Shown here: one piece after another, positions 1,629 through 27,145 of the stretch
Layout of the letters: each line of letters opens with the position of its first letter
How positions within the stretch are numbered: position 1 is the first letter of the stretch
Source: Chloroflexota bacterium
GTDB taxonomy: Bacteria > Chloroflexota > UBA11872 > VXOZ01
Direction: 5' to 3'
Assembly: GCA_022824225.1 (NCBI GenBank)
Contig: JAJEAH010000042.1
Span: forward strand, 2,216-66,215
Length of the DNA stretch: 64,000 nucleotides
Made by a program: the position numbers and the translations under genes
Notes under the pieces: generated by a model
Told to the model about the DNA's origin: nothing
Seen by the model: the letters and a program-made list of their open reading frames with translations, nothing else
The model's database searches: none

Positions 1629-2223
1629 TTCCCTCTTGATGGACCGATAGGGGCATGCATTCTATAGTCGATTTCACCTGTCATTCCGAACGGAGCGCAT
1701 CGGAGTGAGGAATCTAGAGTGCTGGGCCTACAATCTGCGCAAAGTACGGCGCTAGACTTCGCGTACAAGGATCGCTACGGCGCTCCATTCGTCATGGCAC
1801 GTGCCACCGGCCCAAATCAAGTGCCCCTGTCCGCTCTCGATGGGGGGTTGGAATAGCGGGGCAATCGACTTGCCGGCTCTTGCCAATGAAACCCTACCGC
1901 CCTGGATTCCGGCTTTCGCCGGAATGACGGATGTATGGCGGCCGGGCTTACGTTTGGCAGTACAGCGCGTTGCGGAAGTCCAGTACGTCTTAGAGCCTGT
2001 ATACAATCGTTTTTTGAGCGACCAACGTTCGCCCCCGTATCCAGTACGGGGCAGGCTCTGAGCACTTCGACAAGCTCAGTACAGGCTTGTCGAAGGGTGA
2101 GTAGAACCGCCGCAAGTTGGCAAATGGCCGTTCATGATTCGACAAGGGCTTCGCGCAGCCCTCAGCACGAACGGCATTCATCAGCCTTGTAGACCCCCTC
2201 TAGAGATGGTCGTAAACAGGTTC

Positions 2224-3273
2224 TTAGTAGTCCAGCACGACGGCCAGTGCCTCATCCGGATGGTCGACGAGCAGGTCGACGGCGCGCGGCGCTTCGGCAA
2301 AGGGGAAGCGGTGGGTGAGCAGCGGGGCGACGTCTACCTGGCCGGCGGCCTGCATGCGCAGCAGCGCGTAGAGATTGCGTTCCTGGTCCCACTGGACGAA
2401 GCGGTTGGGATAGTCGGTGCGGGCGTGCAGGTAGTCCTGGTCGCGGCTGCCGGGGCCCCGTCCGTAGACCCAGCGGATGTCGATCTCCTTGGTGTGGGGA
2501 TTGGCGTCGGGATGCGCCGGGGTGAAGTCCGGCACCAGCCCGCCAATCATCATCACGCGGCCGCTGTGCCGCACCAGGCGGATGCCCAAGCGGCCCGGTT
2601 CCGGCCCGCCGGCCGCGGCCACGAACGCCGCGTCCACGCCCACGCCGCAGGTGAAGTCCGCCACCGCCGCGGCCAGGGTGTCTGGGTCGCCTTGCACTGC
2701 CAGGTCTATGCCCAGTTCCCGGGCTTTGTCCAGGCGGGAGGCGATGAGGTCGATGCCGATGGCCTGGCCGCCCAGCATGCGCACCATCTGGGCGATCATC
2801 TGGCCCACCAGCCCCATGCCGATGATGGCGGCGGTCTCGCCGGGCAGGAGTTGGGCGCGGCGCACGGCGTGGAGGGCGGTGAGGCCGATGTTGGCGGTGG
2901 CGGCCTCCGCCGTAGCCAGATTGTCCGGTATCTTGGCAAAGTTATGGCGAATGAGCGCGGCCCGTTCGGCGTGAGGCGCAAAGCCGCCGCCGACCGCCAC
3001 CACGCGGTCGCCCGGCGCGAAATGCGACTCCAAATCGGGCGTGACCGCCACGATGCGGCCGGCCGATTGGTAGCTCATGGGCCGTTCCCGCAGTTCGCCG
3101 GGATCGGCGCCGGCCTGCACGGCCCGGCGGGCGCGGGCCAGCCCGCCGACTTCCGAGCCGGTGCCGAGCACCGAGGCCGTGGTCTCGATGAGTACGCCGG
3201 TTTCCCCCAGCGCCGGTTCCGGCACTTCTTTCAGATACGTATCGCCCCGGTTGTTCGCATACAGCGCGCGCAT
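2224..3273 (-). CDS. MDR-superfamily (zinc-type alcohol dehydrogenase-like) oxidoreductase
   Basis: 349 aa. GroES-like N-terminal part, then a Rossmann segment AAIIGMGLVGQMIAQM...GIDL typical of medium-chain dehydrogenases/reductases. Confidence 0.6.
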   Translation of the reverse strand: MRALYANNRGDTYLKEVPEPALGETGVLIETTASVLGTGSEVGGLARARRAVQAGADPGELRERPMSYQSAGRIVAVTPDLESHFAPGDRVVAVGGGFAPHAERAALIRHNFAKIPDNLATAEAATANIGLTALHAVRRAQLLPGETAAIIGMGLVGQMIAQMVRMLGGQAIGIDLIASRLDKARELGIDLAVQGDPDTLAAAVADFTCGVGVDAAFVAAAGGPEPGRLGIRLVRHSGRVMMIGGLVPDFTPAHPDANPHTKEIDIRWVYGRGPGSRDQDYLHARTDYPNRFVQWDQERNLYALLRMQAAGQVDVAPLLTHRFPFAEAPRAVDLLVDHPDEALAVVLDY

Positions 3274-3385
3274 AAAATCTCCTTCTCACTCACTCAATAT
3301 GCCGGGAATGCCCCGTGTGCATACGTGGGTTCTCGCAATTGGGAACTGAGCGTGGCCGCGCAAGGCAGCGCCTGGCCCGCCTGGT

Positions 3386-4954
3386 CTAGGGCTCCGGCCA
3401 CCGCCAGGCGGCTTGGCGGCGCAAACCGGCGTCATACGCCGCCGCCAGCTCCGCCCGCCGTGCCGCGGGCACATTTGAATAGTTCGGCGTGTCCATGCCG
3501 GGAATCCGGGCCGGTGGCGGCGCTTCCACTTCCCACTCGTCGAGCCGGGCCGCCAGCTCCTGCAGCAGCGACTTGCGCGCGGGATCGTCGGCCAGATTGC
3601 GCATCTCCGCCGGGTCGTTCGTCATGTCGAACAGTTCCCAGCGCGTACGGAAGTCCGCGCCGTAGTCGATCAACTTGTACTCAGGAGTGCGCAGCATGCG
3701 CTTGGTGCCTAGCATGTACGCTTCCTGGCGCGTGTACGGCACGCCGAGCATCCAGGAGAACGCCTCATTGGGCCAGCCCGCGCTTTCACCGGCGCACAAC
3801 GGCGCGAGGCTCCTGCCCTGCACGCCCTCAGGTACCGGCAGCCCGCAGAGATCGAGCACGGTGGGCACGATGTCCACGTGGCCGGTTATCTCGTCCACCA
3901 CCCGGCCCGGCGTCAGCGACGGGCAGACGGATTCCGGCGCTTGCATGATCAGCGGCACGTGCACCGCGCCCTCGTACATTACCTGCTTGTACATGCGCCC
4001 GTGGTCGCCCATCATGTCGCCGTGGTCTGACATGAAGATGATGATGGTGTTATCCGTCAGGCCGCGCTTGTCAAGCGCGGCGAGCACCAAGCCGATGTCG
4101 TCGTCCACGTGGGTGGTTGCCGCGTAGTAGATGGCCGTAATCTCGCGCAGCATCTCTGGATCGTCGATCAGGTGCGCAACTTCCTGCGTGCCGCGCGCGT
4201 CCCGGCGCAGCTTGGCAATGCCGGGCGGAATTTCCGGCAGCGAAATGGCCTCCCGATCATACATCGAATAGTACGGTTCCGGTTCCACGAAGGGCGAGTG
4301 GGGATCGTGGTAGCTGGCAAAGAGAAACCACGGTTTGCCGCTCTGCTCCAGCAGATCAAGGGCTTCCAGGGTCTGCCGCGTAATCCAGCTTGTGTCGTTG
4401 TCTTCCGGCGGATCGGCAAACAGTCCCACGCCGCCGCCATGGGGATCGCCCGGCCACCGGCAGGTGCCTTCCGTGATTCTGTCGCGCTTCCACTCACCGT
4501 ACTTGCCCTGCATATACGCTTCATAGCCCCGTTCCGGCGTGGGGCCCTCGGCGCGAAACGTGCGGAAGTCGTCGAAGCCGAACGCCTCCTCCACCGGATC
4601 GAAGTGCAGCTTGCCGGCAATGGCGGTCGCGTAGCCGTAATGCTGCATGATGGACGGCAGAAAGATCTCGCCGTCTCGCGTCGGCAGGCCGTTCCAACTG
4701 CCCTCGTGGACAGGCACGTGGCGTCCGTTGAAGACCGAGTAGCGCGCCGGCGTGCAGATCGGCGCCGCGCTGTAGAAGTTGGCAAAGCGCACGCCGCGCG
4801 CCGCCAGGCCGTCGAGCGCCGGCGTGCGGCAGACGGGGTGCCCCGCGCAACTGAGTAGGTCCCAGCGCATCTGGTCCGTCATGAGTATGAGCACGTTGGG
4901 CTGTCGTTTGCCGCCGCCCTGCTCGACTTGCCCGTTGCCGGATTGCTCACTCAC
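3386..4954 (-). CDS. sulfatase (arylsulfatase family, Cys-type formylglycine motif)
   Basis: 522 aa. N-terminal NVLILMTDQMRWD and C-T-P-A-R (CxPxR FGly motif) in PICTPARYSVFNGR, with a downstream GKLHF/HGDMMGDHG metal-site pattern. Confidence 0.85.
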   Translation of the reverse strand: MSEQSGNGQVEQGGGKRQPNVLILMTDQMRWDLLSCAGHPVCRTPALDGLAARGVRFANFYSAAPICTPARYSVFNGRHVPVHEGSWNGLPTRDGEIFLPSIMQHYGYATAIAGKLHFDPVEEAFGFDDFRTFRAEGPTPERGYEAYMQGKYGEWKRDRITEGTCRWPGDPHGGGVGLFADPPEDNDTSWITRQTLEALDLLEQSGKPWFLFASYHDPHSPFVEPEPYYSMYDREAISLPEIPPGIAKLRRDARGTQEVAHLIDDPEMLREITAIYYAATTHVDDDIGLVLAALDKRGLTDNTIIIFMSDHGDMMGDHGRMYKQVMYEGAVHVPLIMQAPESVCPSLTPGRVVDEITGHVDIVPTVLDLCGLPVPEGVQGRSLAPLCAGESAGWPNEAFSWMLGVPYTRQEAYMLGTKRMLRTPEYKLIDYGADFRTRWELFDMTNDPAEMRNLADDPARKSLLQELAARLDEWEVEAPPPARIPGMDTPNYSNVPAARRAELAAAYDAGLRRQAAWRWPEP

Positions 4955-5307
4955 ATTGAGACTCCCTAGAGCTTGTTTGTGATCTTACTTAGGTGGGTAT
5001 TTGCAGAGCCAAATTAAAGTCGTTCGCGCCGAGCATGCCTGTCCTGAGCCTGCAGTTATTCGTGCCAAGCCTGCTGCCGTTCGTGCTGAGCACTTCGACA
5101 AGCTCAGCACAGGCCTGTCGAAGCATGAACGGCAACGGGCGTGTACTGCCCTTCCCACAATGCCGCACCGTTCACCCTTCGACCAGCTCAGGGCGAACGG
5201 TGCTCGTGCGGACAACGCCATTGTAGACAGGCTCTTAGCGGATTGCATGCTCGCTTTGAGGCGAGGCCCGCTCACAACTACGGGCTGGAAAGTGCATGCC
5301 TACCAAA

Positions 5308-6867
5308 TTACTGCGTCTTGGACGAAGCCTGCGGCCAACGCCTTGCCGCCGAGCGGCGCATGTTCGCCTCCCAAGCTGCGCGCATTGCCGCCCGTCGTTC
5401 CGCCGGGACGTACGCATAGCTCGGTGTGGGCATACCGGGCACGCTTACCGGTGGAGGTTCCTCGTCCTGCCATGCATCGAGCCGCGCCGCCAAAGCGCGC
5501 AAAACGGAACGGTACGCGGGATCGTCGGCCAGATTGTGCACCTCTGCGGGGTCGTCGGCCATGTTGAAGAGTTCCCACCGCATGCGGAAGTCCGCGCCGT
5601 AGTCGATCAGCTTATACTCCGGCGTGCGCACCATCCGCTTCTTGCCGACCATATACGCTTCCTGGCGCACGAACGGCGCGGCCCGCACCGCAGCGAACGC
5701 CTCATTGGGCCAACCGGCGGCGTTGCCGGCGCACAGTGGCGCCAGGCTTTGGCCCTGCACGCCCGCCGGGACGGGGAGGCCGCAGAGTTCCAGTACCGTC
5801 GGCAGAATATCCACCTGGCCGGCGATCTCGTCAACCACGCGGCCCGGCGTCAGCGCCGGGTGGATGGTCTCCGGGACCTGCATAACGAGCGGTACGTGCG
5901 CCGCGCCTTCGTACATCACCTGTTTATTCATGCGACCGCGATCGCCCATCATGTCGCCGTGATCGGAGAGGAAGAGAACGATGGTGTTGTCCGCCAGACC
6001 GCGTTCCTCGAGGGCGGACAAGAGGATGCCGATGTCGTGGTCCACGTGCGTGGTGGATGCGTAGTAGACCGCCGTAACCGCTTGCACCACTTCCGGATCG
6101 TCAATCACGTGGGCACGTTCCTGGGTACCGCGCGCGTCCCGGCGCAGCCGGCGTATTTCGGGCGGAATCTCACGCAGCGGGATGGATTCCCGGTCGTACA
6201 TCGAGAAGTACGGCTCCGGCTCGACGAAGGGCGAGTGGGGATCATGGTAGCTGGCAAAGAGGAACCACGGCTTGCCGCTTTCCGCAAGCCCAGCGAGGGC
6301 TTCAATGGACTGCCGCGTAATCCAACTCGTGTCGTAGTCCTCCGGCGGGTCGGCAAATCGACCGACGCCCTTGCCCCCCGTGCCTTCCTCGATCCTATCG
6401 CGCGTGTATGCGCCGTATTTCCGCGTCATATAGGCGTCGTAGCCGCGTTCGGGCGTCGGACCCTCGGCGCGAAACGAACGAAAGTCGTCAAAGCCAAATG
6501 CTTCTTCCCGTGGCGCGAAGTGCAGCTTGCCGGCGATGGCCGTCGCGTAGCCGTAGTGCTTCAGGATGGAGGGCAGGAAAACCTCGCCATCCTGCGTGGG
6601 CCAGCCGTTGCTCCAGCCGCCGTGGACGTGGACGTGCCGCCCACTGAAGATCGAGTAACGGGCGGGGGTACACGTTGGGGCCGCGGTGTAGAAGTTCGCA
6701 AAGCGCACGCCGCGCGCGGCCATGCCGTCGAGCACCGGCGTGCGGCAGATCGGATGGCCCGCGCAACTGAGCACGTCCCACCGCATCTGGTCGGCCATGA
6801 TGAAGAGCACGTTCGGCTGCTTCCGGCCGGATTCGCCGCTATTGCCGCTGGCGCTTGATTTGTTCAC
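5308..6867 (-). CDS. sulfatase (arylsulfatase family), tandem paralog of 3386..4954
   Basis: 519 aa, collinear with the neighbouring sulfatase (NVLFIMADQMRWD, PTCTPARYSIFSGR). Confidence 0.85.
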   Translation of the reverse strand: MNKSSASGNSGESGRKQPNVLFIMADQMRWDVLSCAGHPICRTPVLDGMAARGVRFANFYTAAPTCTPARYSIFSGRHVHVHGGWSNGWPTQDGEVFLPSILKHYGYATAIAGKLHFAPREEAFGFDDFRSFRAEGPTPERGYDAYMTRKYGAYTRDRIEEGTGGKGVGRFADPPEDYDTSWITRQSIEALAGLAESGKPWFLFASYHDPHSPFVEPEPYFSMYDRESIPLREIPPEIRRLRRDARGTQERAHVIDDPEVVQAVTAVYYASTTHVDHDIGILLSALEERGLADNTIVLFLSDHGDMMGDRGRMNKQVMYEGAAHVPLVMQVPETIHPALTPGRVVDEIAGQVDILPTVLELCGLPVPAGVQGQSLAPLCAGNAAGWPNEAFAAVRAAPFVRQEAYMVGKKRMVRTPEYKLIDYGADFRMRWELFNMADDPAEVHNLADDPAYRSVLRALAARLDAWQDEEPPPVSVPGMPTPSYAYVPAERRAAMRAAWEANMRRSAARRWPQASSKTQ

Positions 6868-6949
6868 AGATGGTCTCGCTCGTTTTGGTGAAAGAACACG
6901 TGTGCAGTCGTGTTAGTGGCACCGGCTCATCGGATGACGATTTCTCTTC

Positions 6950-7380
6950 GTAGCGCGGGGGCTTGTCCCCCGCTCGACTTCATACGGCTCGTTCACGGAG
7001 AAGATGGATTCCCGCCCCGTATCGGGGTACGGGGCAAGCTTTCACGGGAATGACGGATACTGTCTCGCTCTCCTGTGTTTGACGTGAGGGCTTGTCCCCC
7101 GCCAACTCCGTGCCGGTTCACGTGCAAAGGCACTCTTGCCCAAGCCCAAAGGACTCACTGGCACTATCGTGGCGCTTCTCCCCTGTAGCGCGGGGGCTTG
7201 TCCCCCGCTCGGCATGGCGGGGGTTCCGTCATTCCCGCGCCCGCGGGAATCCATCCGGTTCTCCCCCCGCTGCGGCGGTCGGGTACGCCAGCCAAGACAG
7301 GATGGATTCCCGTTTCCACGGGAATGACGGATTCTGTCTCGCTCTCCTCTGTTTAGCGCGGGGGCTTGTCCCCCGCCACG
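6950..7380. repeat. array of REP-like palindromic units (A-type ATTCCCGT-N4-ACGGGAAT and B-type GCGGGGG-N5-CCCCCGC hairpins)
   Basis: At least four B units (6954, 7090, 7190, 7360) and three A or A-variant units, with conserved spacers, in the intergenic region between a sulfatase gene and the amidohydrolase gene. Confidence 0.8.
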
Positions 7381-7391
7381 TCCGTGCCGGT

Positions 7392-8747
7392 TCACGGGAC
7401 GAGATTCTCCTGCCCAAGGCCAAAGAACTCATTGGCGTTGTCGTGCAGCACCCGCGCGGCGACGATTCTCGCTTGGTCCACCGAATAGAGGCCTTCCTCA
7501 ACCTTCTCGCTCAGCACGCGGGCGACGTTTTCCCGCGCCATCACGCTGTGGCCGTACGCCAGTTCCACCGGCCCGTAGTCGCCGCCAAAGCCGAAGATCT
7601 TGTTGTGGGGCACGGTTTCCAGCCACTCGTGCAGCGTCGCCCGCGCCACGTACGGGCTGATGATGTGCACCCAGCAGAGATCGAGGTAGACATTCTGGAA
7701 GTTCTTCGCCAGCGTAGCCAGTTCGCTCTGGTACGGATACCCCGCGTGGAAGATGTCGAATCGCGCTCGCGGATACTGGATGAAGAGGTTGACGAGGTGG
7801 GTGGGATTGCTGTTGGTGATGATGTTGCCGTTGCCGGCGTGGAGGCCGGTGTGGATCTGCATGGGTATGTCGTGCTCGATGCAGAGCCGCACTACCTGGT
7901 GCAGCATGTAGTCCTGCAACGGCTTGCACTCCGTGAAGGTCAAGCCGTCTTGGGTCATGCCGTTGCCCTGCGCCCGGGTGCCGGCGACCACTTGCGCAAA
8001 GAGCTGCTCGGCGGTTGAGCGCGGCACGTTGTCATACTGCAAGATGCGCCGGTAGGCCAGCCCACTTTTGACGGTGACCATGCCCTCCGCCTTGGCCTGG
8101 GCATATGCCGCGCCCAAGGCGGACACGAGGTCGTCCAGATCGTAGATGCTGTGGCCGGTCTGGCGTTCCAGTCTCACCACGTCAGCCCGGCTGCTCACGC
8201 TAATAAAGGAATCGAAGCGCATGGCCGGGGCGAAAACTGCTTTGTCCACCTGGGTGGACTGCACGTCGGGGATGGCCAGCGGGATGTTGCCGCGCTCTTG
8301 TAGTATATGCCGGTACCAGGCCGTATGCTGCTGCGAGGCGGTCAATTGCTCGTTGACGCTGCGGTAGCCCGCCAGCGACGGCGCCGCCGACATGAGGTCG
8401 TCCATCCCAAAGAGGTCGCGGCACGCGATGTGCAGCGCCTTTGCATATCCCGTTGTCTTGGCAAACTGCCAGTAACGCAGGAAAATCGCCCAGCGGTCGG
8501 CGGGATCGCGGCTTTGGTCGTACATCCGCTCCTGTTCATCCGGCGTCATGCCGGCGGAGACCAGATCGCTGCCGACGTAGTGGTGCATTTCGGATGAGAG
8601 CAGATCGAGCGGCATTTGCCGCCGGTCTTCCTCGGAAAACGTATGCTCGTGGGTGTCGATGACCGGCTGCGCCCTGACGGCCTCTTCGATTTCGGCAACG
8701 GCGGCAATAGCCACTGGCTCACCTCCCTGTAAATGGCGTTCTGCCAT
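7392..8747 (-). CDS. amidohydrolase-family metal-dependent TIM-barrel hydrolase
   Basis: 451 aa. N-terminal IDTHEH (HxH metal ligand pattern), later HTGLHAGNGN and DLCW motifs, consistent with the amidohydrolase_2-like fold. Substrate is unknown. Confidence 0.5.
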   Translation of the reverse strand: MAERHLQGGEPVAIAAVAEIEEAVRAQPVIDTHEHTFSEEDRRQMPLDLLSSEMHHYVGSDLVSAGMTPDEQERMYDQSRDPADRWAIFLRYWQFAKTTGYAKALHIACRDLFGMDDLMSAAPSLAGYRSVNEQLTASQQHTAWYRHILQERGNIPLAIPDVQSTQVDKAVFAPAMRFDSFISVSSRADVVRLERQTGHSIYDLDDLVSALGAAYAQAKAEGMVTVKSGLAYRRILQYDNVPRSTAEQLFAQVVAGTRAQGNGMTQDGLTFTECKPLQDYMLHQVVRLCIEHDIPMQIHTGLHAGNGNIITNSNPTHLVNLFIQYPRARFDIFHAGYPYQSELATLAKNFQNVYLDLCWVHIISPYVARATLHEWLETVPHNKIFGFGGDYGPVELAYGHSVMARENVARVLSEKVEEGLYSVDQARIVAARVLHDNANEFFGLGQENLVP

Positions 8748-8924
8748 TGTACTGTACTTCTTCGCCGATAGACGTACAAGCGGGAGAGGATTAGCCCCGT
8801 TGACAACTGGCCTGGGAAAGCAAAGTGCAAGCCATTGGATTCCAGATCGTCAATCCCATGAAAGTAGCACGAGGGGTTCCGTTGTGCCCGTGCAAGGTCG
8901 CCCCCGCGCGGACATACAGGGGTA

Positions 8925-9450
8925 AGTAGATGTCATTCCGAGCGAAGCGAGGAATCTCAGGTGCTGGTATAGCAGGGCAATGCGCTAGGTTCCTCACTCC
9001 GCTGCGCTCCGATCGGAAGGACATGTGGAGGCAAGTAGGGAGAACATGCGCCTGTCGGGCCGCGCGGGGGCGCGATCCATGTTCTCTTAGTTGGCACACC
9101 CCACGACCGGAGGGGAGAAGCCCCGCGTTACACAGAGGAGTGCGAGACAGGGATCCGTCATTCCCGTGAAAACGGGAATCCATCTTCTCCGAAAAAGCAC
9201 CGCGCCAAGTCGAGCGGGGGGACAAGCCCCCGCGCTACCCGGAGGAGAGCAGGACGCACATCCGTCATTCCCGTGAAAACGGGAATACATCTTCTCCGAA
9301 AAAGCACCGCGCCCTGCCGAGCGGGGGACAAGCCCCCGCGCTACCCGGAGGAGAGCAGGATGCACATCCGTCATTCCCGTGAAAACGGGAATACATCTTC
9401 TCCGAAAAAGCACCGCGCCAAGTCGAGCGGGGAAAAATCCCCGCGCTACT
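8925..9450. repeat. array of REP-like modules, including three tandem about 105-bp copies of an A-unit plus B-unit composite, preceded by a small E-type hairpin variant (8928-9020)
   Basis: Tandem copies begin at about 9163, 9268 and 9373. The module is CCGTCATTCCCGTGAAAACGGGAATMCATCTTCTCCGAAAAAGCACCGCGCC....GAGCGGGGGACAAGCCCCCGCGCTACCCGGAGGAGAGCAGGA. Confidence 0.8.
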
Positions 9451-9606
9451 CCCTGCCTAGTAGCTGGAATCCGTATGAGTCTACAAGACTGCGCGAGACT
9501 TCGTGGTCTTGTCTATCGTCCTGGTGTAATCTCACTATGTAAGCCGCGGCGGTCATCAGCGGCGTTTCGCTTAGAGCCTGCCGGGTAAGCAGAGGAGAAA
9601 TCGAGC

Positions 9607-11370
9607 ATGCTGGTGTGGTCTGAACCCGCCGATTGGGATACCTGCGCCAGGGATACCGGCATCGCCGCTGAGGAGGCGGGCGGGCTTCGTCTCGCCGCGA
9701 GCCATCTCATTACCCACGAGCCCGGGGCGTTCTCTACCCAACACGGCGAGGAACTCTACCAAAATACCCAAGCCCAGGTGTCATTTGAGCTGGGCGATGC
9801 GGTTCCCCAGGGGGCCGACTGCTACTTCTACGCTCGCGAGGAACGGGAGAACCGGTGGCCGCTCAAAGTGACGGTCAACGGCCATGCCGAAGCCGTGGGA
9901 CCCGGCACGGCGCTCGCCGGCGAATTTGCTTGGTACCACGTGCGGTTCTCGCGGCAACACCTGCGGCCCGGCCGGAATACCGTCCGCTTCGCCTGCGACA
10001 GCCCCGCCGCGAACGCGTGGATTCTCTCCGTAGACACCAGCGTTCCCAACGCGCACAGCCGCAAGAGCACGGACGGCGGTCAGTCCTGGGATGCCACAGG
10101 TTTCGGTTTGGAAGGGGCATTATCCGGCGAGTACGTGGTGCGCCTGCGGGTGCGGCAACATCCGGCGCGGGGGACGATTACGAGTTCCATACTTGACGCG
10201 GCCACACTGTTTCCGTCCGCCCCGCTCGTCCTGCACTGGCACGCCGCCACGCCGGCTGGAACGAGGGTCGCCTTGCGCTACCGTACCGGCACACGGCAAG
10301 ACATAGAGCGCGCAGCTTGGCGCGATGTGGTGAATGCCGCGGCGACCGCAAATGAGATCGCGGATTCACACGCCGATTCAGATTCGGGCCAAGCATCGCG
10401 CGGGAATGACGAATTCGGGCAAGCCGAGTTACCGCAAACCGTCGACCCGTGTGTGCAGTGGCAAGCCGAACTGCGTTCCAACGGCGGCAGCGAGTCGCCG
10501 GTTCTGCGGGGCATGGCGCTGCTTCCCAAAAACGCCAGTCCTGACGAGACAAGGCCCGTGAGCCGGTTGTCGTGTGCTGAGAGCCAAGCCACACCTTCTT
10601 ACCCCTTCACCCACCAGGACCCGGCGGAGCCGAAGCTGAGCATCCTGCGCAGGCAGGAGCGTCTTGATGAAACCATCGCCGGCGGGGCAACGCAGTGGGA
10701 GCAGGCGCTGGCGTTGCGGAGTTGGGTAGCGGTGCAATGGGTGCACCGCGCCCCCCACGAGTTCCGGCGCTGCTGCCCGTGGGATGCCCTGACGATCTTG
10801 GACTGGATGCGCGCCGACCGGGGGCACGGCCAGCCGCAACCCGACGCCTACTGCACGCACTACGCGGTGGTCTTGGCGCAGTGCGGGTTGGCGCTGGGCT
10901 GGCAGGCGCGCCTCTGGGTGATGTCCGCCGAGCCGACTTTGCACACGAACGGCCACTTTGTGGCCGAACTTTGGAGCAAGGCGCACGGCAAGTGGGTGAT
11001 GCACGACGCCGATACGGATTCGCACATTGAGAGAGACGGCGTGCCGCTGGGCGTGCTGGAAATCCATGATGCATGGCGAGAAGGCGGCCTCGATGGACTA
11101 TGCGTGGTCGCGGGGACAAACGCCGGCAAGGTGAAGATCGGCCCGGACTGGATCGAAGAGATGCTGCCGCTGGGTCTTTACCGCTTCTGCGGTCTCGTGC
11201 TCCGCAACAACCACCTGTCCACGCTCGTCCCAGGGCCCGTTGAGCACGGCTGGACGGCATACAAGTGGGATGGGTTCCTCTGGTACCGCGACGGAGCCGA
11301 GCCGGAGTTGCCGTTCTTCTCGCTCTCGTCCAGTCGGCGGGCGGATTTCGACTGGATGCCGCAGAGCTAG
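9607..11370 (+). CDS. transglutaminase-like (Cys-His-Asp) domain protein
   Basis: 587 aa. The C-terminal region contains the ordered triad context AYCTHYAVVLAQ (Cys), NGHFVAELW (His), MHDADTD (Asp), characteristic of transglutaminase-like cysteine peptidase cores. The N-terminal approximately 380 aa are uncharacterized. Confidence 0.55.
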   Translation: MLVWSEPADWDTCARDTGIAAEEAGGLRLAASHLITHEPGAFSTQHGEELYQNTQAQVSFELGDAVPQGADCYFYAREERENRWPLKVTVNGHAEAVGPGTALAGEFAWYHVRFSRQHLRPGRNTVRFACDSPAANAWILSVDTSVPNAHSRKSTDGGQSWDATGFGLEGALSGEYVVRLRVRQHPARGTITSSILDAATLFPSAPLVLHWHAATPAGTRVALRYRTGTRQDIERAAWRDVVNAAATANEIADSHADSDSGQASRGNDEFGQAELPQTVDPCVQWQAELRSNGGSESPVLRGMALLPKNASPDETRPVSRLSCAESQATPSYPFTHQDPAEPKLSILRRQERLDETIAGGATQWEQALALRSWVAVQWVHRAPHEFRRCCPWDALTILDWMRADRGHGQPQPDAYCTHYAVVLAQCGLALGWQARLWVMSAEPTLHTNGHFVAELWSKAHGKWVMHDADTDSHIERDGVPLGVLEIHDAWREGGLDGLCVVAGTNAGKVKIGPDWIEEMLPLGLYRFCGLVLRNNHLSTLVPGPVEHGWTAYKWDGFLWYRDGAEPELPFFSLSSSRRADFDWMPQS

Positions 11371-11504
11371 CGCGGGCCTGACGCCGGAGGTTGCGGGAAT
11401 GGCCGCGCGAAGCTCGTCGCCCTTGCCATCTCCGCAACGCTGCGCGCCCAGCGGTCGCAGGCGGCAAACCTGCGCTGCCGGCCAACTGCGCCTGCGGACA
11501 GCAT

Positions 11505-11770
11505 TGAGGCTTGCCCCCCGCTCGGATTGGCGGGGTTCCGTCATTCCCGCACCCGCGGAATTTCGTCGCTTCCACTGGATGGACTGGTACAAGGTAATCC
11601 GTCATTCCCGCGCCCGCGGGAATCCATCCGGATTCTTCCCTGCTCGGCATGGTAGGGCGCCTTCTCGGAGAAGATGGATTCCCGTTTCCACGGGAATGAC
11701 GGATTCTGCCTTGCTCCCCTCTATGTGGCGCGGGGGCGTGTCCCCTGCCTCGGTGGTCGAACGCCGGCAG
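11505..11770. repeat. cluster of REP-like A/B palindromic units
   Basis: B units at 11508 and 11740; A units at 11538, 11598 and 11672 (GTCATTCCCGCGCCCGCGGGAATCCATCC and GGATTCCCGTTTCCACGGGAATGAC). Confidence 0.7.
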
Positions 11771-11809
11771 AGCCAACTACAGGCATGCGCGCGCGCCCGG
11801 TACGTTGGC

Positions 11810-13012
11810 TCAGCTCGCGTGCCACAGCGGCGCAATCTTGGCGTGGTATTCGTCCTCGATCAGGGCGGCGTATTCCGGCCAGATAGCCATGAGCGCGTCG
11901 AGCCGGGCGTCGTTCATATCGTCGTGGGGCGTAATCGCGGCATACACGTTGGCGACGGTGCGTACCGCGGAAGGCTTGAGCGTGCCTGCCAGCCGCTGCC
12001 ACACCGGCCCGGCGTCCGTGCCGTTGTCATCGAGCAGGGCTGTGAAGAACTGTGTGCTCAGCCCCTCGATTTCTTCGCCCAGGTGCATGCGCAGCCACTC
12101 GCCGTCAAAGAGGTCCGGAGAGGCGCGGCGGAAGAAGACGGCGATGCCAAAGCGCCCGCGGATACCGGCAAGAGCCTGCAACGCGGAGCGTAAGCGTCGT
12201 TCACGCGCAGCCTGCGCGGGCGGTTGTTGCGGCAAGTCCCGGCAAAACGCTGCCACCCGGTCGCGCAACTCGTAGACTACCTCCAGCAACTCGTCCGCCA
12301 TGGCGGCGCACTCATCCTCAGACATTTGCACGCGGTAGTCCGCGGCGACAATGGCATTCAGCCTCTCCAGCAGCGGCCGCTTGCCAATCACACCCGGCAG
12401 AACCTGCAGCGCCGACGGCTTCGTCGGCGCCCACGCGTTGCGCAGCAGGCCGCACGCCAGCTTGGCGGCCGGCAGGAACCAGTGGGACAGCGCACCGTAG
12501 ACCGGGTAGTAGGGCAAGTATTCCGGCAGCAAGTTGATGGGCGGGTCGAACTGCTGCGCGCGCGGCACCAGGTAGATCTTGAACTTGCCGCAGGCCTCGT
12601 GCTGTTGGGCCTCCGTTAGCTGCGCGGGCTGCGCTGCCAGGACGTCGTCCAACGGGCTCGCCGCGCCGCCGATGCGCTGCCAGTCGCGCACCTCGCCCAT
12701 GAGCGGCAGGAGTTGCCGCGCCTCGTCCGGCGAACAGATGAAGCCGGGCGGGTGTTCCAGAATGCGGGCGTAGTGGGGCGCGTCTTCCAGCATCGCCACG
12801 TACGCCTCACCGCCCGCGCGGCTCAGCGCCAGCCAGGATTCGGCATCGGGCGCGTCCGCTACGGTACGCAGATCGTGATCGCTGAATCCCGGCGTGAGCG
12901 TGCCGAGATGATGCTTGCAATACACGGCAGCAGCGCAACTTGGCACGTGCTCGGCAAGGTAGCGCCCAAGCTCCGCACCGATGTAGCGGTAGTCGTCCAA
13001 AGAGATTTGCAT
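11810..13012 (-). CDS. hypothetical protein (weak nucleotidyltransferase-like G-S/T...SDhD motif)
   Basis: 400-aa ORF with good coding potential. HHLGTLTPGFSDHDLRTV loosely resembles the Pol-beta-type nucleotidyltransferase motif. No other family signature was recognised. Confidence 0.4.
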   Translation of the reverse strand: MQISLDDYRYIGAELGRYLAEHVPSCAAAVYCKHHLGTLTPGFSDHDLRTVADAPDAESWLALSRAGGEAYVAMLEDAPHYARILEHPPGFICSPDEARQLLPLMGEVRDWQRIGGAASPLDDVLAAQPAQLTEAQQHEACGKFKIYLVPRAQQFDPPINLLPEYLPYYPVYGALSHWFLPAAKLACGLLRNAWAPTKPSALQVLPGVIGKRPLLERLNAIVAADYRVQMSEDECAAMADELLEVVYELRDRVAAFCRDLPQQPPAQAARERRLRSALQALAGIRGRFGIAVFFRRASPDLFDGEWLRMHLGEEIEGLSTQFFTALLDDNGTDAGPVWQRLAGTLKPSAVRTVANVYAAITPHDDMNDARLDALMAIWPEYAALIEDEYHAKIAPLWHAS

Positions 13013-15549: not shown

Positions 15550-16326
15550 CTAGCCTTGGATGCTCTGCTCTAAGAAGCTCACGATCCGGTCTCGGTTTGC
15601 GTTCAGGCTGGAGAACTGTTTCTCGCAGACATCGCTAAACCGCGCAAGCACCTTGCGGTTGATCCCTTCCTGGTCCTCGAATATCGCCAATGACCGAAAC
15701 GGAACCCCCCACCTTTCGAATTGAAGCAGCGCAATTGTCGCGTCACGAGTTCTCGCATCGTTTGGCAAGGCGTGCACGAACAAGGGCTCTGGCAACCCGC
15801 TTACGCGACAATCGACTGTGTAAACGGCTTGAGGATCAAGGCCGGGATCGTGCCAACCAAAGTCTCTGCGTTCTTCAGGCACGGATTCGGCAAGTAAGCT
15901 CCTAAAGTCATCTTCAAAGGTGGAGTGAACCCGCTCTCTTGTCAAATATGTGACATCCGTGATCTTGAGCAATGCCTGCACAAAAGAGTAGAGGGCGTCG
16001 CCGTACTGATCATCGGGCACTGCCAGCAAGAGTTCTCCCTCCCGGTCCTCAATCTGAAAAACGGAGAGCGCATTGGATATGATCTTCTGGCGCGTACCGC
16101 GGCGAAGGTCTTGATCGTCTATCGAGTAGGTGAGATGCATGTAGGTGTGCGCTTCGTCTGACAAGACCCAGCCGGTCTCATCCCTCTTCAGCACTATCGA
16201 CAGGTGATCGCCGTCGTCGAATTGAAAAGGCGTTAGGACACGGTAACGGCCTATCCCCTCGGGCACAAGCCTTACTTGGGCGGAAACTTTTTCGTGAAAG
16301 TCTCTCTCAACCGGGGCCATCGACAT
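15550..16326 (-). CDS. hypothetical protein, second gene of a low-GC two-gene module
   Basis: 258 aa, in a region visibly lower in GC than the flanks. No catalytic motif recognised. From memory it may resemble DUF1828/DUF1829-type proteins; this is unverified. Confidence 0.5.
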   Translation of the reverse strand: MSMAPVERDFHEKVSAQVRLVPEGIGRYRVLTPFQFDDGDHLSIVLKRDETGWVLSDEAHTYMHLTYSIDDQDLRRGTRQKIISNALSVFQIEDREGELLLAVPDDQYGDALYSFVQALLKITDVTYLTRERVHSTFEDDFRSLLAESVPEERRDFGWHDPGLDPQAVYTVDCRVSGLPEPLFVHALPNDARTRDATIALLQFERWGVPFRSLAIFEDQEGINRKVLARFSDVCEKQFSSLNANRDRIVSFLEQSIQG

Positions 16327-16334
16327 GACTAGAC

Positions 16335-16814
16335 CTACTCCTGGAAGAGACTCAGTTGCTCGTTGGGCGGCAAGACAAAGTTGCAGTCCTCAAAGAGACA
16401 CTCGATCGCTCCCTCCCGGCTACTATACCTGTCAGTCAATGCTGCGTAGGTGTCTTCCTTTGCTCCCAAGTGCTGGTACCGCATTGTCGCCATGTGAATG
16501 TGAAATCCCAGGAATCTCTCATTCTCGATCTGATTATTGTGTTCGTGGCTCCTTCCGTTACAGCGCCGAAGCCGAAACAACTGATTGGTCTGCGGAATGC
16601 GCACCGCCAAGATGATCGAGAAGTCAAGGACGTTGATTCTGTTCTGGCGCACTATTAGATGAAAGTGGCTACCGGCATCGCCGATAAGATCTAGGGCTGC
16701 TTCCTGGTGTCCTCGCTTAGGCCGAAGGTGAAAACGATCGCGCCAAGATTCGGGCAATTGCTTTCGCTCTTGGATGAGATCGCTGATTTGACTGTCGGTG
16801 AACGTGATTGCCAT
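16335..16814 (-). CDS. hypothetical protein, first gene of the low-GC two-gene module
   Basis: 159 aa. Its stop lies 8 bp upstream of the next gene's start, suggesting translational coupling. No recognised family. A possible Rx5H segment (RRCNGRSH) is too weak to call HEPN. Confidence 0.5.
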   Translation of the reverse strand: MAITFTDSQISDLIQERKQLPESWRDRFHLRPKRGHQEAALDLIGDAGSHFHLIVRQNRINVLDFSIILAVRIPQTNQLFRLRRCNGRSHEHNNQIENERFLGFHIHMATMRYQHLGAKEDTYAALTDRYSSREGAIECLFEDCNFVLPPNEQLSLFQE

Positions 16815-24809: not shown

Positions 24810-25829
24810 TCAGCGCGCCTGCGACCGGATGAGCGGACCCTCTGCCAGCATCTGCGCAAGCTGCCCCGCCCGGTCAACGCGGCCGAAGTAGTTGCAGGGA
24901 ATGACCTCAAACGGTTCCAGGCGGCGCATGAGTTCATCCAGCAGCAGGTTCTGGCCGATGTTGTCGGTGGCGTAGTGGGGCAGGCGCACGATGGCAAGGC
25001 CGTGCTCGCGGCACGCCGCCACGGTTCCCGCTCCCGCCGAGACCTGCACCACCGTGTTCACACCCGCCTTGGCCAGCAGGGGATAGGCGCTGGGCGTATG
25101 CGCATAGCCGCCGGCGAACTTCGCGTGGATGCGGCCGGCGGGCTGCGCCGGGTCGCCGGTCATGATCTGGGGCGGCGCGCCAATGCGCGCGGCTTCCTGC
25201 ATCTCCGGGATCGTGAGCATGAGTTCGACGATGTCGCCGACGGTCTGCGGCTTTTCGCGTGCAAAGAGCGCGTTGATGAACTGGCGGTGGCCAAAGTCAA
25301 CCGGCGTATGAATGCACGCCAGCGGATAGCCGAGCAGCTTGGCCGTATCGGGCCCGATGCGGTGCATGTCTTCGTGCTCGCGCAAGCGCTCCGCCATGTC
25401 CGCGGCCACGCAGGCGCGCGCCTCGTCCTCCGGCACACCTTCCCAGATGAGGTAGTCGGCATTGATCTCCATGAAGTCGGCGACGAGTGAGGCGGAGATG
25501 CCCACGCTGTTCGTATGGTGGGAGATATACGCGTCGAAGGGCCTGCCCCTGGCGGCGAGTTGAATGCCCAACAACATTTCCTTTACGTGCATGTTGATGC
25601 CCACCAGCGCGGTGCGGATGGGCGTATCGTCCGGGCCGTTGGAAATGCGCACGTCGCCGTAGGGATTGCGGAAGCGTTCCCGGTCGTAGAGGGCTTGCTC
25701 CCACGCCGGCAGGGCGTCAAATTCGTTCCGGCGTTGCTGCAGTTGCCGGTCTACGGCCGCCTGACCTCTGGGGTCAAGCTCGCGGCCGATTTCGATGGAC
25801 GTTTCATACAAATCGCGTAAGGTTACCAT
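24810..25829 (-). CDS. Nif3-like (DUF34 / GTP cyclohydrolase 1 type 2 homolog) family protein, paralog 1 of 3
   Basis: Start taken at MVTLRDLYETSIEIG to match the paralogs. ISHHTN, ACIHTPVD and LPHYATDNIG resemble Nif3 HHP / AAHTNLD / GHxxxE motifs. Confidence 0.5.
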   Translation of the reverse strand: MVTLRDLYETSIEIGRELDPRGQAAVDRQLQQRRNEFDALPAWEQALYDRERFRNPYGDVRISNGPDDTPIRTALVGINMHVKEMLLGIQLAARGRPFDAYISHHTNSVGISASLVADFMEINADYLIWEGVPEDEARACVAADMAERLREHEDMHRIGPDTAKLLGYPLACIHTPVDFGHRQFINALFAREKPQTVGDIVELMLTIPEMQEAARIGAPPQIMTGDPAQPAGRIHAKFAGGYAHTPSAYPLLAKAGVNTVVQVSAGAGTVAACREHGLAIVRLPHYATDNIGQNLLLDELMRRLEPFEVIPCNYFGRVDRAGQLAQMLAEGPLIRSQAR

Positions 25830-25922
25830 GATCTTGCTGCCGGATGTGTCCTCTCGTACGAATACCGTTCGCGCTGAGCCCGTCGAAGCGCACAAGCAAC
25901 AAGTGCCCGCGCCACACAAGAC

Positions 25923-26894
25923 CTAGTTGCCGTTCCGCCGGATACGTTCGAAGTAGTTGCAGGGAATGACGTTCAGCGGGCCGAGGCGTTGTTCCACCTT
26001 ATCCAACAGCAGATTGAGGCCGACGTTATCGCACGCGCCGTGGGGCATGCGCACCCAGGCCATGCCGAGTTCTGCCGCCGCGCGCCGGTGCGCGGGGCTG
26101 CAGCCGATGGTGACGAACGTGCCGACACCGGCGTCCTTCAGCAGGGGGATCACCTCGGCGGGGAAGAGCCAGCCGCCGCCGTCCTGGTGGAAGATGCGGC
26201 CGGCGGGTTGGTCCGCGTCGCCGGCCATGATGCGGGGGATGGCGCCGATCTTCGCCGCGCCCTGAAACTCCGGCAGCGCCAGCAGCGCCTGTACCACGTC
26301 CCCCACCGTTTCCGCGTGCGCGGCCTCGATTGCGCCGCGCACGCCCTGTCCGTGGTGAAAGTCGGCGGGGGTATGGATGCAGGCCAGGGGGAATTCCAGC
26401 AACTGCGCCATGTCGATGCCGATGCGGTTGAAGTCCTCGGCGTACTGCCAGCGGTCGGCCATCATGGCCGCGACGTGGGGCTCGGCGTCGGCCCGGTCTA
26501 CCCCTGCGCCGGCCAGCAGATCGACGAGGTAGGGCACGGTATCATAGATGAGCGTATCCGCCGGCACCCCGATGCCGTTGGTATGGTGGGCGACCACGGC
26601 GTCGATGCGGGTGCCGCTGCCGCGCAGATTGTCGGCCAGCAGGAGTTCCTGCGTGCCGATGTTGACGCCCATGAGAATAGTCTCGAGTTCCGTATCTTCC
26701 GGACCGTTCACGATGCGCACGTCGCCGTACGGGTTGGTGAACCGCTCCCGGTCGTAATAGGGCTGGCGCCAGTCCGGCAACGCGGCGTACTCCTCCCGCC
26801 GCTGCGCCATCTGGCGGTCCAGGGCTTCGCGACCCCGTGGGTCTACTTCCTTACCGATCTCGATAGCGGTTTCATAGAGTTCGCGTAAGTTCAT
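25923..26894 (-). CDS. Nif3-like family protein, paralog 2 of 3
   Basis: 323 aa, collinear with the neighbours (MNLRELYETAIEIG, VAHHTNGIG, ACIHTPADF, MPHGACDNVG). Confidence 0.5.
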   Translation of the reverse strand: MNLRELYETAIEIGKEVDPRGREALDRQMAQRREEYAALPDWRQPYYDRERFTNPYGDVRIVNGPEDTELETILMGVNIGTQELLLADNLRGSGTRIDAVVAHHTNGIGVPADTLIYDTVPYLVDLLAGAGVDRADAEPHVAAMMADRWQYAEDFNRIGIDMAQLLEFPLACIHTPADFHHGQGVRGAIEAAHAETVGDVVQALLALPEFQGAAKIGAIPRIMAGDADQPAGRIFHQDGGGWLFPAEVIPLLKDAGVGTFVTIGCSPAHRRAAAELGMAWVRMPHGACDNVGLNLLLDKVEQRLGPLNVIPCNYFERIRRNGN

Positions 26895-27145
26895 GCGTTC
26901 GATTCCATGCTCGTTTCAGTTCGGCGTGCCTTGCTGCTCTCGCCACTCCCACCTGCTTTCGGCGCCACCGCCTGCCCTCGTCACTCCCGCTGTCCCTTGT
27001 CATGCCCGCCTTCTCGCGCCATTCCCGCTTTTTCCCGTCGCGCTAGTTTCATGGTAATGACGGATACTCCTCGCCCCTTTGGGTACTCATCGCCTCTACC
27101 GGTTGCGCTGTTCGTCTGCACTGTACTCAATTGCAATGTCAATGT

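What the first reader, a model, noticed from the sequence alone, without database searches (positions are those of the whole stretch)
6950..9450. Dense multi-family palindromic repeat landscape with tandem REP-like arrays
At least five distinct palindromic or hairpin repeat families recur across this 64-kb window, with more than 30 sites in total:
- A: ATTCCCGT-GAAA-ACGGGAAT with variants.
- B: GCGGGGG-ACAAG-CCCCCGC.
- C: a 28-bp perfect palindrome.
- D: CTTCGACAAGCTCAG..CTGAGC..TGTCGAAG.
- F: GCCCCGTA..TACGGGGC.
A and B combine into an approximately 105-bp module that is tandemly triplicated at 9163-9450 and arrayed at 6950-7380, superficially CRISPR-like but with conserved 'spacers'. This density and diversity is unusual and provides markers of genome plasticity. 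The arrays flank the amidohydrolase gene on both sides.
Basis: seen in the sequence. Interest (0 to 1): 0.55.

Follow-up and report, generated by a model that had tools for sequence, protein, structure and literature searches.

The report
Mosaic arrays of two hairpin repeats
The region holds real but already-known kinds of bacterial DNA hairpin repeats, one matching the recognition hairpin of the recently described Ssn single-strand nucleases and one GTAG-type REP, joined into a unit that was copied in tandem and that differs between close relatives.

Summary
A 106-bp unit is repeated 2.8 times at 9153-9449. Strict patterns find 47 hairpin-repeat sites in the window, 43 of them intergenic (p~1e-20).

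Family A (CGTC-ATTCCCGT-GAAA-ACGGGAAT-CCA) is a CGTC-1 REP. This is the same element as Neisseria dRS3/NTS and the 'Ssn-related motif', which small GIY-YIG Ssn nucleases bind as single-stranded DNA. Its exact 23-mer occurs in more than 120 loci across many phyla. In other organisms I found ~95-aa GIY-YIG genes directly flanked by it.

Family B (GTAG-CGCGGGGGCTTGTCCCCCGC) is a GTAG-tagged REP restricted to this probably Chloroflexota lineage.

B and A are coupled head-to-head across a 19-25-nt linker. This ~85-nt composite is dispersed in at least 7 copies in the window and also occurs in relatives and other metagenomes. The array is a tandem amplification of it. The layout resembles neisserial intergenic mosaic elements (NIMEs).

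Syntenic loci in four relatives carry different repeat contents at the same intergenic sites. Short-read contigs break exactly at the hairpins.

The window contains no nuclease, transposase or cas gene. Whether this genome encodes an Ssn or a RAYT could not be tested.

Verdict: a new member of known kinds, of moderate interest.

The parts
6950..6976 (+). B: GTAG-tagged REP (GTAGCGCGGGGGCTTGTCCCCCGCTCG), distal end of the downstream mosaic
   Evidence: D20, identical to 7185-7211; orthologous copy in L124
7005..7055 (-). A*: CGTC-1/SRM hairpin whose loop is expanded by a nested hairpin (F, 7014-7035)
   Evidence: the same interrupted element is present in L124 and is 100% identical in L148
7080..7103 (+). 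B, degenerate copy (TGACGTGAGGGCTTGTCCCCCGCC). With A* it forms a head-to-head B-A composite
   Evidence: (D10)
7118..7171 (-). Diverged duplicate of the last 54 nt of the amidohydrolase gene (recombination scar)
   Evidence: D14: 7040-7171 against 7314-7445, 83%; alignment
7185..7211 (+). B: GTAG-tagged REP
   Evidence: D20
7227..7253 (+). A': CGTC-1/SRM hairpin with stem variant ATTCCCGC/GCGGGAAT. It forms a heads-outward pair with 7303-7329. Absent from strain L148
   Evidence: 63-nt indel; paralogue at 11600-11626
7303..7329 (-). A: CGTC-1/SRM hairpin (ATTCCCGTGGAAACGGGAAT)
   Evidence: Logan contig L123 ends at 7307
7353..7377 (+). B, starting 16 nt after the amidohydrolase stop codon. 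With 7303-7329 it forms a B-A composite. Orthologous B at the same position in L124
7392..8714 (-). Amidohydro_2-family gene (440 aa) flanked by the two repeat regions
   Evidence: (P0001, 100% identity)
8715..8805 (.). Conserved promoter/operator-like segment upstream of the amidohydrolase gene. The repeats stay outside it
   Evidence: conserved block at the end of alignments A1 and A6
8932..9031 (.). E: inverted pair of TGTC-tagged imperfect hairpins, MITE-like. Present at the same site in L148 and L125, absent from L124 and L146
9112..9131 (-). B0: degenerate B, orthologous to the single B of L124; seed of the array
9153..9449 (+). Tandem array, 106-bp period, 2.8 copies. A1 9156-9182, B1 9212-9238, A2 9263-9289, B2 9319-9344, A3 9369-9395, B3 9425-9449. 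All A copies are on the plus strand; all B copies have the GTAG head on the minus strand
   Evidence: D4; single-stranded DNA fold z = -4.96. Logan contigs end at 9183 and 9403
11539..11751 (.). Third mosaic, between the 587-aa and 400-aa genes: degenerate A (11539-11561 +), A' (11600-11626 +), A (11675-11701 -), B (11725-11751 +). Positions 11598-11752 are paralogous to 7225-7380
   Evidence: (D10, D11); Logan contig L121 ends at 11702

Best explanation
The region is a mosaic of two kinds of selfish or domesticated DNA hairpin repeats (REPs) that have become physically coupled.

Family A is a CGTC-1 REP: a CGTC tag, an 8-bp stem beginning AT, a 4-nt loop and a CCA tail. This is the same element as Neisseria dRS3/NTS and the 'Ssn-related motif'. 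As single-stranded DNA it is bound by ~95-aa single-domain GIY-YIG nucleases (Ssn), which cut a few nucleotides 5' of the tag. The Ssn genes are themselves flanked by the hairpin, like a small insertion sequence.

Family B is a lineage-specific GTAG-tagged REP, the class usually linked to RAYT transposases.

B and A sit head-to-head across a 19-25-nt linker. This gives an ~85-nt composite that has spread to several intergenic sites. Where two B copies bracket an A (B-A-B, the ancestral state still seen in relative L124), unequal recombination or replication slippage between the direct repeats amplified the unit into the 106-bp tandem array. The same kind of repeat-mediated recombination duplicated the gene's 3' end on the other side.

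The result is a NIME/BIME-like hot spot. Its position is conserved among relatives while its content turns over quickly.

Shown here: the identity and architecture of the repeats, their distribution, the link between the hairpin and GIY-YIG genes in other organisms, and the turnover between relatives.

Inferred: that an Ssn (and a RAYT) acts in this organism, and that the array grew by unequal recombination or slippage.
For: 1. A fits every sequence feature of CGTC-1/NTS. Eight copies fit ATTCCC-N8-GGGAAT against 0 expected. Six fit the published SRM expression against 0.39 in shuffles (definitions read).
2. The exact 23-mer GTCATTCCCGTGRAAACGGGAAT hits more than 120 loci in Dehalococcoidia, Thermodesulfobacteriota, Nitrospirota, Bacteroidota, Patescibacteria, Vibrio and others. 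Only the hairpin plus its tag and tail is conserved there.
3. The ~95-aa PF01541 genes retrieved are flanked by the hairpin in the one-orientation / gene / inverted-orientation layout. In L126 the copies lie at 2957-2984 (+) and 3288-3315 (-) around the gene at 3001-3288. L128-L130 show the same, including the exact window variant.
4. Three of the 8 stem pairs show double compensatory changes among sub-families.
5. B and C carry the GTAG tag. Among the 120 cross-phylum loci they occur only in L061, labelled Chloroflexota, and otherwise only in the syntenic relatives.
6. The B-linker-A composite was found 14 times in at least 8 sequences. Linker length stays at 19-25 nt while the linker sequence diverges. 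L142 has an independent array of at least 5 units.
7. Syntenic loci with 78-94% amino-acid identity carry different repeat contents at the same intergenic sites. L124 has B-A*-B and a single B where the window has the larger mosaic and the array. L146 has no upstream array. L148 differs by a 63-nt indel and by point changes shared between adjacent units.
8. All five informative ends of short-read contigs fall within about 10 nt of an A hairpin, three of them inside or directly adjacent to one, as expected for a multicopy repeat.
9. 43 of 47 sites are intergenic.
Against: - No GIY-YIG, RAYT (Y1_Tnp), IS110 or other transposase gene was found. tBLASTn with 40 real GIY-YIG proteins was negative for the 64-kb window, the syntenic relatives and the other loci assigned to this lineage. 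Pfam scans of about 60 window ORFs were also negative. Action of a nuclease in this organism is therefore unproven.
- Chenal et al. report that changing the stem while keeping the hairpin abolishes cleavage by the Neisseria enzyme. The window holds at least 4 stem variants, so either several enzymes, a relaxed specificity, or inert relics must be assumed.
- Two of the three array copies have A instead of the C after the palindrome. That base was the most important one for SsnA binding.
- Di Nocera et al. found CGTC clusters rare and head-to-tail arrangements negligible. The array here is head-to-tail.
- The growth mechanism is inferred from structure only.
- The compensatory-change test used copies pre-selected for at least 7 of 8 pairs.
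Confidence: 0.75

Rival explanations
1. Classical REP/BIME system. All the hairpins, A included, are REPINs made and moved by a RAYT (IS200/IS605-like Y1 transposase) encoded elsewhere in the genome.
For: B and C have the GTAG head typical of RAYT-associated REPs. B forms a head-to-head homodimer at 34593/34639, which is REPIN-like. The regular alternation of orientations in the array is BIME-like (Nunvar abstract).
Against: A carries the CGTC tag, not GTAG. CGTC REPs were never found next to tyrosine transposases (PMC3733652). They are found flanking GIY-YIG genes. No Y1_Tnp domain is present in the window.
Confidence: 0.15
2. The hairpins work mainly as RNA. They are co-transcribed with neighbouring genes and act as 3'-end stabilisers, attenuators or processing sites. 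The array is a structured leader for the 587-aa gene.
For: All five B-to-A composites seen in the window and L124 are co-oriented with the adjacent gene or genes. Most sites lie just downstream of coding regions, as Di Nocera et al. report for REPs. The array strand folds much better than shuffles, z = -4.96.
Against: No Rfam family matches. No T-tract follows A or B, so they are not intrinsic terminators. Content at a given site is not conserved between relatives whose genes are 80-90% identical. The same 27-nt hairpin is shared by phyla with 30-70% GC, which fits a protein recognition site better than local RNA function. This reading does not exclude the DNA-level one.
Confidence: 0.2
3. [quoted passage not shown] The mosaics would be scars of integration and excision.
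For: This is reported for dRS3 in Neisseria (PMC1797815; PMC11893778 introduction).
Against: The window contains no integrase, IS110 or phage gene. B has 0 exact hits and A only 3 in 2.9 million viral contigs.
Confidence: 0.05
4. A degenerate or orphan CRISPR array.
For: Regular spacing of a short palindromic repeat.
Against: The 'spacers' are themselves repeated at 83-95% identity and contain a second hairpin. The period is 106 nt. The window has no cas genes. The same unit is dispersed singly elsewhere.
Confidence: 0.01

Closest known systems
NTS / Ssn-related motifs (SRM) and Ssn GIY-YIG single-strand nucleases (Chenal et al. 2025, Nat Commun, PMC11893778)
   Same: Same hairpin: CGTC tag, ATTCCC..GGGAAT palindrome and C/CCA tail, with a defined orientation. 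It is extragenic, multicopy and clustered around genes. In other organisms, ~95-aa GIY-YIG genes are flanked by it.
   Different: No ssnA gene is in the window, and its presence in the genome is unknown. Several stem variants coexist. Two array copies lack the C after the palindrome. The host is an uncultured, probably Chloroflexota lineage rather than a proteobacterium.
CGTC-1 REPs and dRS3 within neisserial intergenic mosaic elements (Di Nocera et al. 2013, PMC3733652; Bentley et al. 2007, PMC1797815)
   Same: 20-bp ATTCCC-N8-GGGAAT repeats separated by ~80-nt repeated segments. The arrays sit at syntenic intergenic sites, with number and length differing between genomes. They are interleaved with other repeat families.
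   Different: Bentley et al. described NIMEs as not seen outside Neisseria, and Di Nocera et al. did not list CGTC REPs for Chloroflexi. Here the segment between hairpins is the same unit repeated head-to-tail, and it contains a GTAG REP at a fixed distance.
GTAG-tagged REPs, REPINs and BIMEs with RAYT transposases (Nunvar 2010; Bertels and Rainey 2011; Di Nocera 2013)
   Same: B and C have the GTAG head, GC-rich stems, head-to-head dimers, clustering and lineage restriction. GTAG REPs are known in Chloroflexi (T. roseum GTAG-23).
   Different: In the composite, the dimer partner of B is a CGTC REP from the other super-family. No RAYT was found nearby.
Rickettsia palindromic elements and other intragenic REPs
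   Same: One A hairpin with stuttered half-sites is inserted in frame in a fadB-like gene (59225-59371).
   Different: This is a side observation outside the finding's coordinates.

Membership tests
CGTC-1 REP = dRS3 / NTS / Ssn-related motif | Unpaired 5' CGTC (or TGTC) tag directly before the palindrome | tested here: met
   All 12 distinct 8+4+8 window copies carry CGTC or TGTC; 18 copies by hand census; G4 T5 C6 invariant in alignment A5.
CGTC-1 REP = dRS3 / NTS / Ssn-related motif | 8-bp stem beginning AT, 4-nt loop, CCA tail, with C immediately after the palindrome | tested here: met
   Exceptions: array copies A2 and A3 have A instead of C, and A* has an expanded loop.
CGTC-1 REP = dRS3 / NTS / Ssn-related motif | Matches the published consensus expressions (ATTCCC-N8-GGGAAT and the SRM degenerate expression) more often than chance | tested here: met
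   8 hits against 0.00 expected; 6 hits against 0.39 expected. Several obvious relatives fail the strict SRM expression.
CGTC-1 REP = dRS3 / NTS / Ssn-related motif | Multicopy and predominantly extragenic | tested here: met
   17 of 18 copies are intergenic. Contig breaks fall at the hairpins. Copies are present in relatives.
CGTC-1 REP = dRS3 / NTS / Ssn-related motif | Genome encodes a single-domain GIY-YIG (cd10448) Ssn gene, usually flanked by the motif | not testable with these tools
   Absent from the window and from about 60 kb of relatives' sequence. The rest of the genome could not be fetched. The association itself was reproduced in other organisms.
CGTC-1 REP = dRS3 / NTS / Ssn-related motif | Strand-specific binding and cleavage as single-stranded DNA | not testable with these tools
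   Needs biochemistry. Only folding as single-stranded DNA was checked.
Neisserial intergenic mosaic element (NIME) | dRS3 repeats flanking 50-150-bp repeated segments, clustered in arrays | tested here: met
   Hairpin to hairpin spacing is 106 nt, with 86-87 nt between successive 20-bp dRS3 hairpins, at 9153-9449; mixed segments at 6950-7380.
Neisserial intergenic mosaic element (NIME) | Arrays at syntenic positions that differ in repeat number and length between genomes | tested here: met
   Five states were compared: window, L148, L146, L124 and L125.
Neisserial intergenic mosaic element (NIME) | Occurs in Neisseria | tested here: not met
   64% GC; ribosomal protein S2 is only 50-59% identical to any named organism. 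The repeat-sharing relative L061 is labelled Chloroflexota. The region is therefore NIME-like, not a NIME.
GTAG REP / REPIN-RAYT | GTAG tag followed by a GC-rich stem-loop, forming head-to-head or tail-to-tail dimers | tested here: met
   B is GTAGCGCGGGGGCTTGTCCCCCGC. B-B dimer at 34593/34639. C is tagged at both ends.
GTAG REP / REPIN-RAYT | A RAYT (Y1 transposase) gene flanked by the REPs | not testable with these tools
   No Y1_Tnp in the window ORFs. The rest of the genome is unavailable.
CRISPR array | Identical repeats separated by unique spacers, with cas genes or a leader | tested here: not met
   Spacers are 83-95% identical to each other. No cas domains were found.
Intrinsic terminator | GC-rich hairpin followed by a T-run | tested here: not met
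   None of the A or B hairpins is called. Five weak sites were found against 2.2 expected, none on A or B.

The most novel reading that the evidence does not exclude
The B-A composite is a chimeric REPIN-like unit. The cleavage-proximal heads of a GTAG REP and a CGTC REP face each other across a length-constrained 19-25-nt linker. A RAYT-type and an Ssn-type single-strand nuclease would then nick opposite strands within the same linker. This would create a programmed recombination or duplication hot spot that spreads the unit and builds the tandem arrays. If so, two unrelated hairpin-nuclease systems would be functionally coupled.
Probability: 0.1. Interest if true: 0.6.

Novelty: new member of a known kind. 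Interest (0 to 1): 0.35.

Why it matters
- The Ssn nuclease and its hairpin partner were described only in 2025, and the biology outside Neisseria is open. This locus shows NIME-like arrays, described by Bentley et al. (2007) as not observed outside Neisseria, in a deep-branching uncultured lineage with about 3.5-Mb genomes.
- The CGTC hairpin can be hard-wired to a GTAG REP at a fixed distance.
- The arrays turn over between relatives whose genes are 80-98% identical, so they are usable strain markers.
- The hairpins explain why short-read assemblies of this organism break here.
- The coexisting stem variants, and the natural C-to-A change at the key binding base, are ready-made substrates for testing Ssn specificity.

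None of this changes current concepts.

Tried and rejected
- Rfam, at gathering threshold on the whole window and permissive on 6800-9650: only tRNA-Pro and chance-level hits.
- My first F pattern with a 4-nt loop found nothing because the loop is 6 nt.
- Exact look-up of the 451-aa ORF and of the 400-aa ORF failed. For the former the annotated start is 11 codons downstream.
- tBLASTn for GIY-YIG genes in the window and in all 145 fetched loci found them only where I had fetched them on purpose.
- I tried to find the lineage's own ssnA through 'longest contig' fingerprints. No hit carried a fingerprint length.
- The metagenome scan for the B-A composite gave 15 loci, of which only 4-5 are true composites.
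- Viral contigs: 0 hits for B and 3 for A, so the repeats are not phage-borne.
- NCBIfam and PDB give no specific name or structure for the GIY-YIG family.
- No supplements of the Ssn paper are held.
- Sample identifiers gave no paper; one accession I guessed was irrelevant.
- I tested whether the array-flanked gene is unusually divergent, as in Neisseria. It is not: 88% and 82.5% identity against 78-94% for its neighbours.
- I tested whether strain divergence changes sharply at the arrays. Identity to L148 is mosaic along the whole locus, which may reflect recombination or MAG chimerism, so no conclusion was drawn.
- Array copy number in strain L148 is unresolved because of an N gap in the scaffold.
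Full report
**What is there**

The window is 60-68% GC chromosomal DNA. It carries ordinary housekeeping and catabolic genes: two sulfatases, an Amidohydro_2 enzyme, rpsB-tsf-pyrH-frr-uppS-cdsA, an EF-G-like gene and others.

TRF finds a 106-bp unit repeated 2.8 times at 9153-9449 with 93% matches. Read closely, the array is B0-A1-B1-A2-B2-A3-B3. A is CGTC-ATTCCCGT-GAAA-ACGGGAAT-CCA on the plus strand. B is GTAG-CGCGGGGGCTTGTCCCCCGC with its GTAG head on the minus strand. Units 1 and 2 are 95% identical, and each is 83-84% identical to unit 0.

On the other side of the amidohydrolase gene (7392-8714, minus strand), 6950-7380 is a mosaic rather than a regular array. Read on the minus strand from the gene's stop codon, it runs:
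- B, A;
- an inverted A;
- B;
- a diverged copy of the last 54 nt of the gene;
- B, then an A whose loop holds a nested hairpin, then B.

It contains an imperfect 274-bp duplication. A third mosaic at 11539-11751 is paralogous to 7225-7380.

**Is it more than chance?**

Every family greatly exceeds its shuffle expectation. Strict patterns give 47 sites, of which 43 fall in the 27% of the window that is non-coding (p~1e-20). The array strand folds as single-stranded DNA far better than shuffles, z = -4.96.

Independent assemblies reproduce the sequence at 99.3-100%. All five informative ends of short-read contigs fall within about 10 nt of an A hairpin, and three lie inside or directly adjacent to one. 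That is what a multicopy repeat does to an assembler.

**What A is**

The hosts include Dehalococcoidia, Thermodesulfobacteriota, Nitrospirota, Bacteroidota, Patescibacteria, Vibrio and Pedobacter, at 29-71% GC. In these loci only the hairpin with its GTC tag and CCAG tail is conserved; the flanks are unrelated.

The literature names the element:
- Di Nocera et al. 2013 sort REPs into GTAG- and CGTC-tagged super-families. CGTC-1 has an 8-bp stem starting AT, a 4-nt loop and a CCA tail. It equals Neisseria dRS3, and at that time it 'lacked a dedicated transposase'.
- Chenal et al. 2025 show that the longer oriented form (NTS; generalised as the Ssn-related motif) is bound as single-stranded DNA by SsnA. 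SsnA is a 94-aa single-domain GIY-YIG nuclease that cuts a few nucleotides upstream of the motif. Its gene is typically flanked by the motif on both sides.

A meets each sequence criterion.

I reproduced the gene association independently. A consensus-like probe retrieved thousands of ~95-aa PF01541 proteins. In four fetched contexts the gene is bracketed by A-type hairpins. In L126 the copies lie at 2957-2984 (+) and 3288-3315 (-) around the gene at 3001-3288. L130 includes the exact window variant and large arrays.

Among copies from this lineage, three of the eight stem pairs change on both sides while pairing is kept. The copies were pre-filtered for pairing, so only the compensatory changes carry weight.

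**What B is, and the composite**

B and C carry the GTAG tag. Among all fetched loci they occur only in L061, labelled Chloroflexota, and in the syntenic relatives. They are therefore lineage-specific, unlike A.

B and A are not independent neighbours. The segment [B stem-loop]-GCTAC-linker-CGTC-[A stem-loop] recurs at least 7 times in the window, including its linker. It recurs in relatives and in unrelated metagenome contigs with different linker sequences but a constrained length of 19-25 nt, mode 23-24. L142 holds an independent array of at least five units with a longer period.

In the terms of Di Nocera et al., this is a head-to-head heterodimer between the two super-families. B also forms a head-to-head homodimer at 34593/34639.

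**Turnover**

I fetched four syntenic relatives: L148 (97.6% nucleotide identity in the amidohydrolase gene), L146 (87%), and L124 and L125 (88% and 82.5% amino-acid identity). Gene order is conserved and neighbouring proteins are 78-94% identical.

| Site | Window | L148 | L146 | L124 | L125 |
|---|---|---|---|---|---|
| Downstream of the gene | 524-bp mosaic | lacks the 63-nt segment with the inverted A; differs in the proximal B-A unit; 100% identical distally | contig ends 79 nt after the stop codon, one B seen | B-A*-B only, orthologous to the window's distal unit including the nested loop insertion | two inverted A copies |
| Upstream of the gene | tandem array | array with an N gap; all A tails are CCA | none of these repeats | one B, orthologous to B0 | B, E, B |

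In the window, two adjacent array units share an ACA tail instead of CCA, which points to recent unit duplication or homogenisation. About 90 bp of promoter-like sequence next to the amidohydrolase start is conserved in all relatives and is free of repeats.

**Mechanism**

My best reading has four parts:
1. A elements descend from, and may still be serviced by, an Ssn-type element.
2. B elements descend from a RAYT-type system.
3. The coupled B-A unit disperses between intergenic sites.
4. B-A-B triads, as in L124, expand by unequal exchange or slippage between direct repeats. The same process left the duplicated 3' end of the gene.

The weak points are stated plainly:
- No nuclease or transposase gene lies in the window or in about 60 kb of relatives' sequence.
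- Several stem variants coexist, although the Neisseria enzyme is sequence-specific.
- Two array copies carry A at the base most important for SsnA binding.

An RNA-level role is not excluded, because the composites are co-oriented with the flanking genes. No T-tracts or Rfam matches support a terminator or a known RNA. CRISPR is excluded, since the spacers are conserved and no cas gene is present. Phage attachment sites are unlikely.

**Comparison and verdict**

By sequence, A is a member of CGTC-1/dRS3/SRM. Its functional membership, meaning a cognate Ssn in this genome, is untested. The arrays behave like NIMEs and BIMEs but lie outside Neisseria, so they are NIME-like. B is a GTAG REP.

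The fixed GTAG-CGTC pairing and the head-to-tail amplification are variations I did not find described in the papers read. This is a new member of known kinds. It is useful as a strain marker and as a natural substrate set for Ssn biochemistry, but it is not conceptually new.

Taxonomy rests on one record label (L061) and on shared lineage-specific repeats. Ribosomal protein S2 has no named relative above 59% identity.

Noticed in passing
window 59225-59371 (inside ORF 58743-61292, minus strand): An A-type hairpin (59268-59294) with tandem 'stutter' copies of its 5' half (period 24, 2.2 copies) and its 3' half (period 30, 3.1 copies) lies in frame inside a 3-hydroxyacyl-CoA dehydrogenase/enoyl-CoA hydratase gene. 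It encodes ...GEEKMDSRLREEEKMDSRLHGNDGNAARGNDG.... Almost all of the 150 listed homologues match in two stretches that break at this point, and four aligned homologues lack about 40-50 residues here.
   Followed up: yes
L068, L085, L097, L022, L036, L128, L129 and window 59225-59371: Tandem duplications of half-sites (tag plus one arm, period 18-30 nt) directly beside complete CGTC-1 hairpins recur in unrelated phyla, including next to GIY-YIG genes. I know of no mechanism for this.
   Followed up: partly
window 8932-9031; longer relatives at 42457-42660, 49651-49932 and 51355-51506: A MITE-like inverted pair of TGTC-tagged imperfect hairpins (ATGTCATTCCGAGCGAAGCGAGGAATCT...). It is present at the same site in L148 and L125 but absent from L124 and L146.
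   Followed up: partly
window 8715-8805: About 90 bp upstream of the amidohydrolase start is conserved in all five relatives. It contains the palindrome TTGTACGTCTA...TACAGTACAA and a TACAAT box, so it is probably an operator and promoter.
   Followed up: no
window 49262-49620: B copies here are followed by a different conserved tail (GCGCTACAGGAsGTTTTTyCC..CCCGTGGGGCrGAGCC), repeated three times. The region also holds a C-family palindrome at 49428.
   Followed up: no
window 49719-49844 and 49961-50095: Two further tandem arrays (26 bp, 4.8 copies; 27 bp, 4.5 copies) lie just upstream of tRNA-Pro(CGG) at 50414-50490.
   Followed up: no
window 24810-28108: Three tandem paralogous genes (369, 323 and 320 aa; 64-76% nucleotide identity in blocks) have no Pfam match.
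   Followed up: no
window 2065-2095, 5083-5110, 5177, 25874, 37041, 51063: The D family (CTTCGACAAGCTCAG, partly palindromic) has six sites, two of which may lie in coding sequence. I did not classify it.
   Followed up: no
window 2600-11900 compared with L148: Identity to the close strain L148 is mosaic along the whole locus, 87-100% per 200 bp. This reflects either frequent recombination or strain-chimeric MAG consensus. L148 also has an N gap inside the array.
   Followed up: partly
window 15550-16814: Two genes (one DUF1828, one without a Pfam match) have markedly lower GC at the third codon position (0.64 against about 0.8-0.88 for neighbours). The DUF1828 gene is present in L125 but missing from L124 and L146, which suggests a small accessory insertion.
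   Followed up: no
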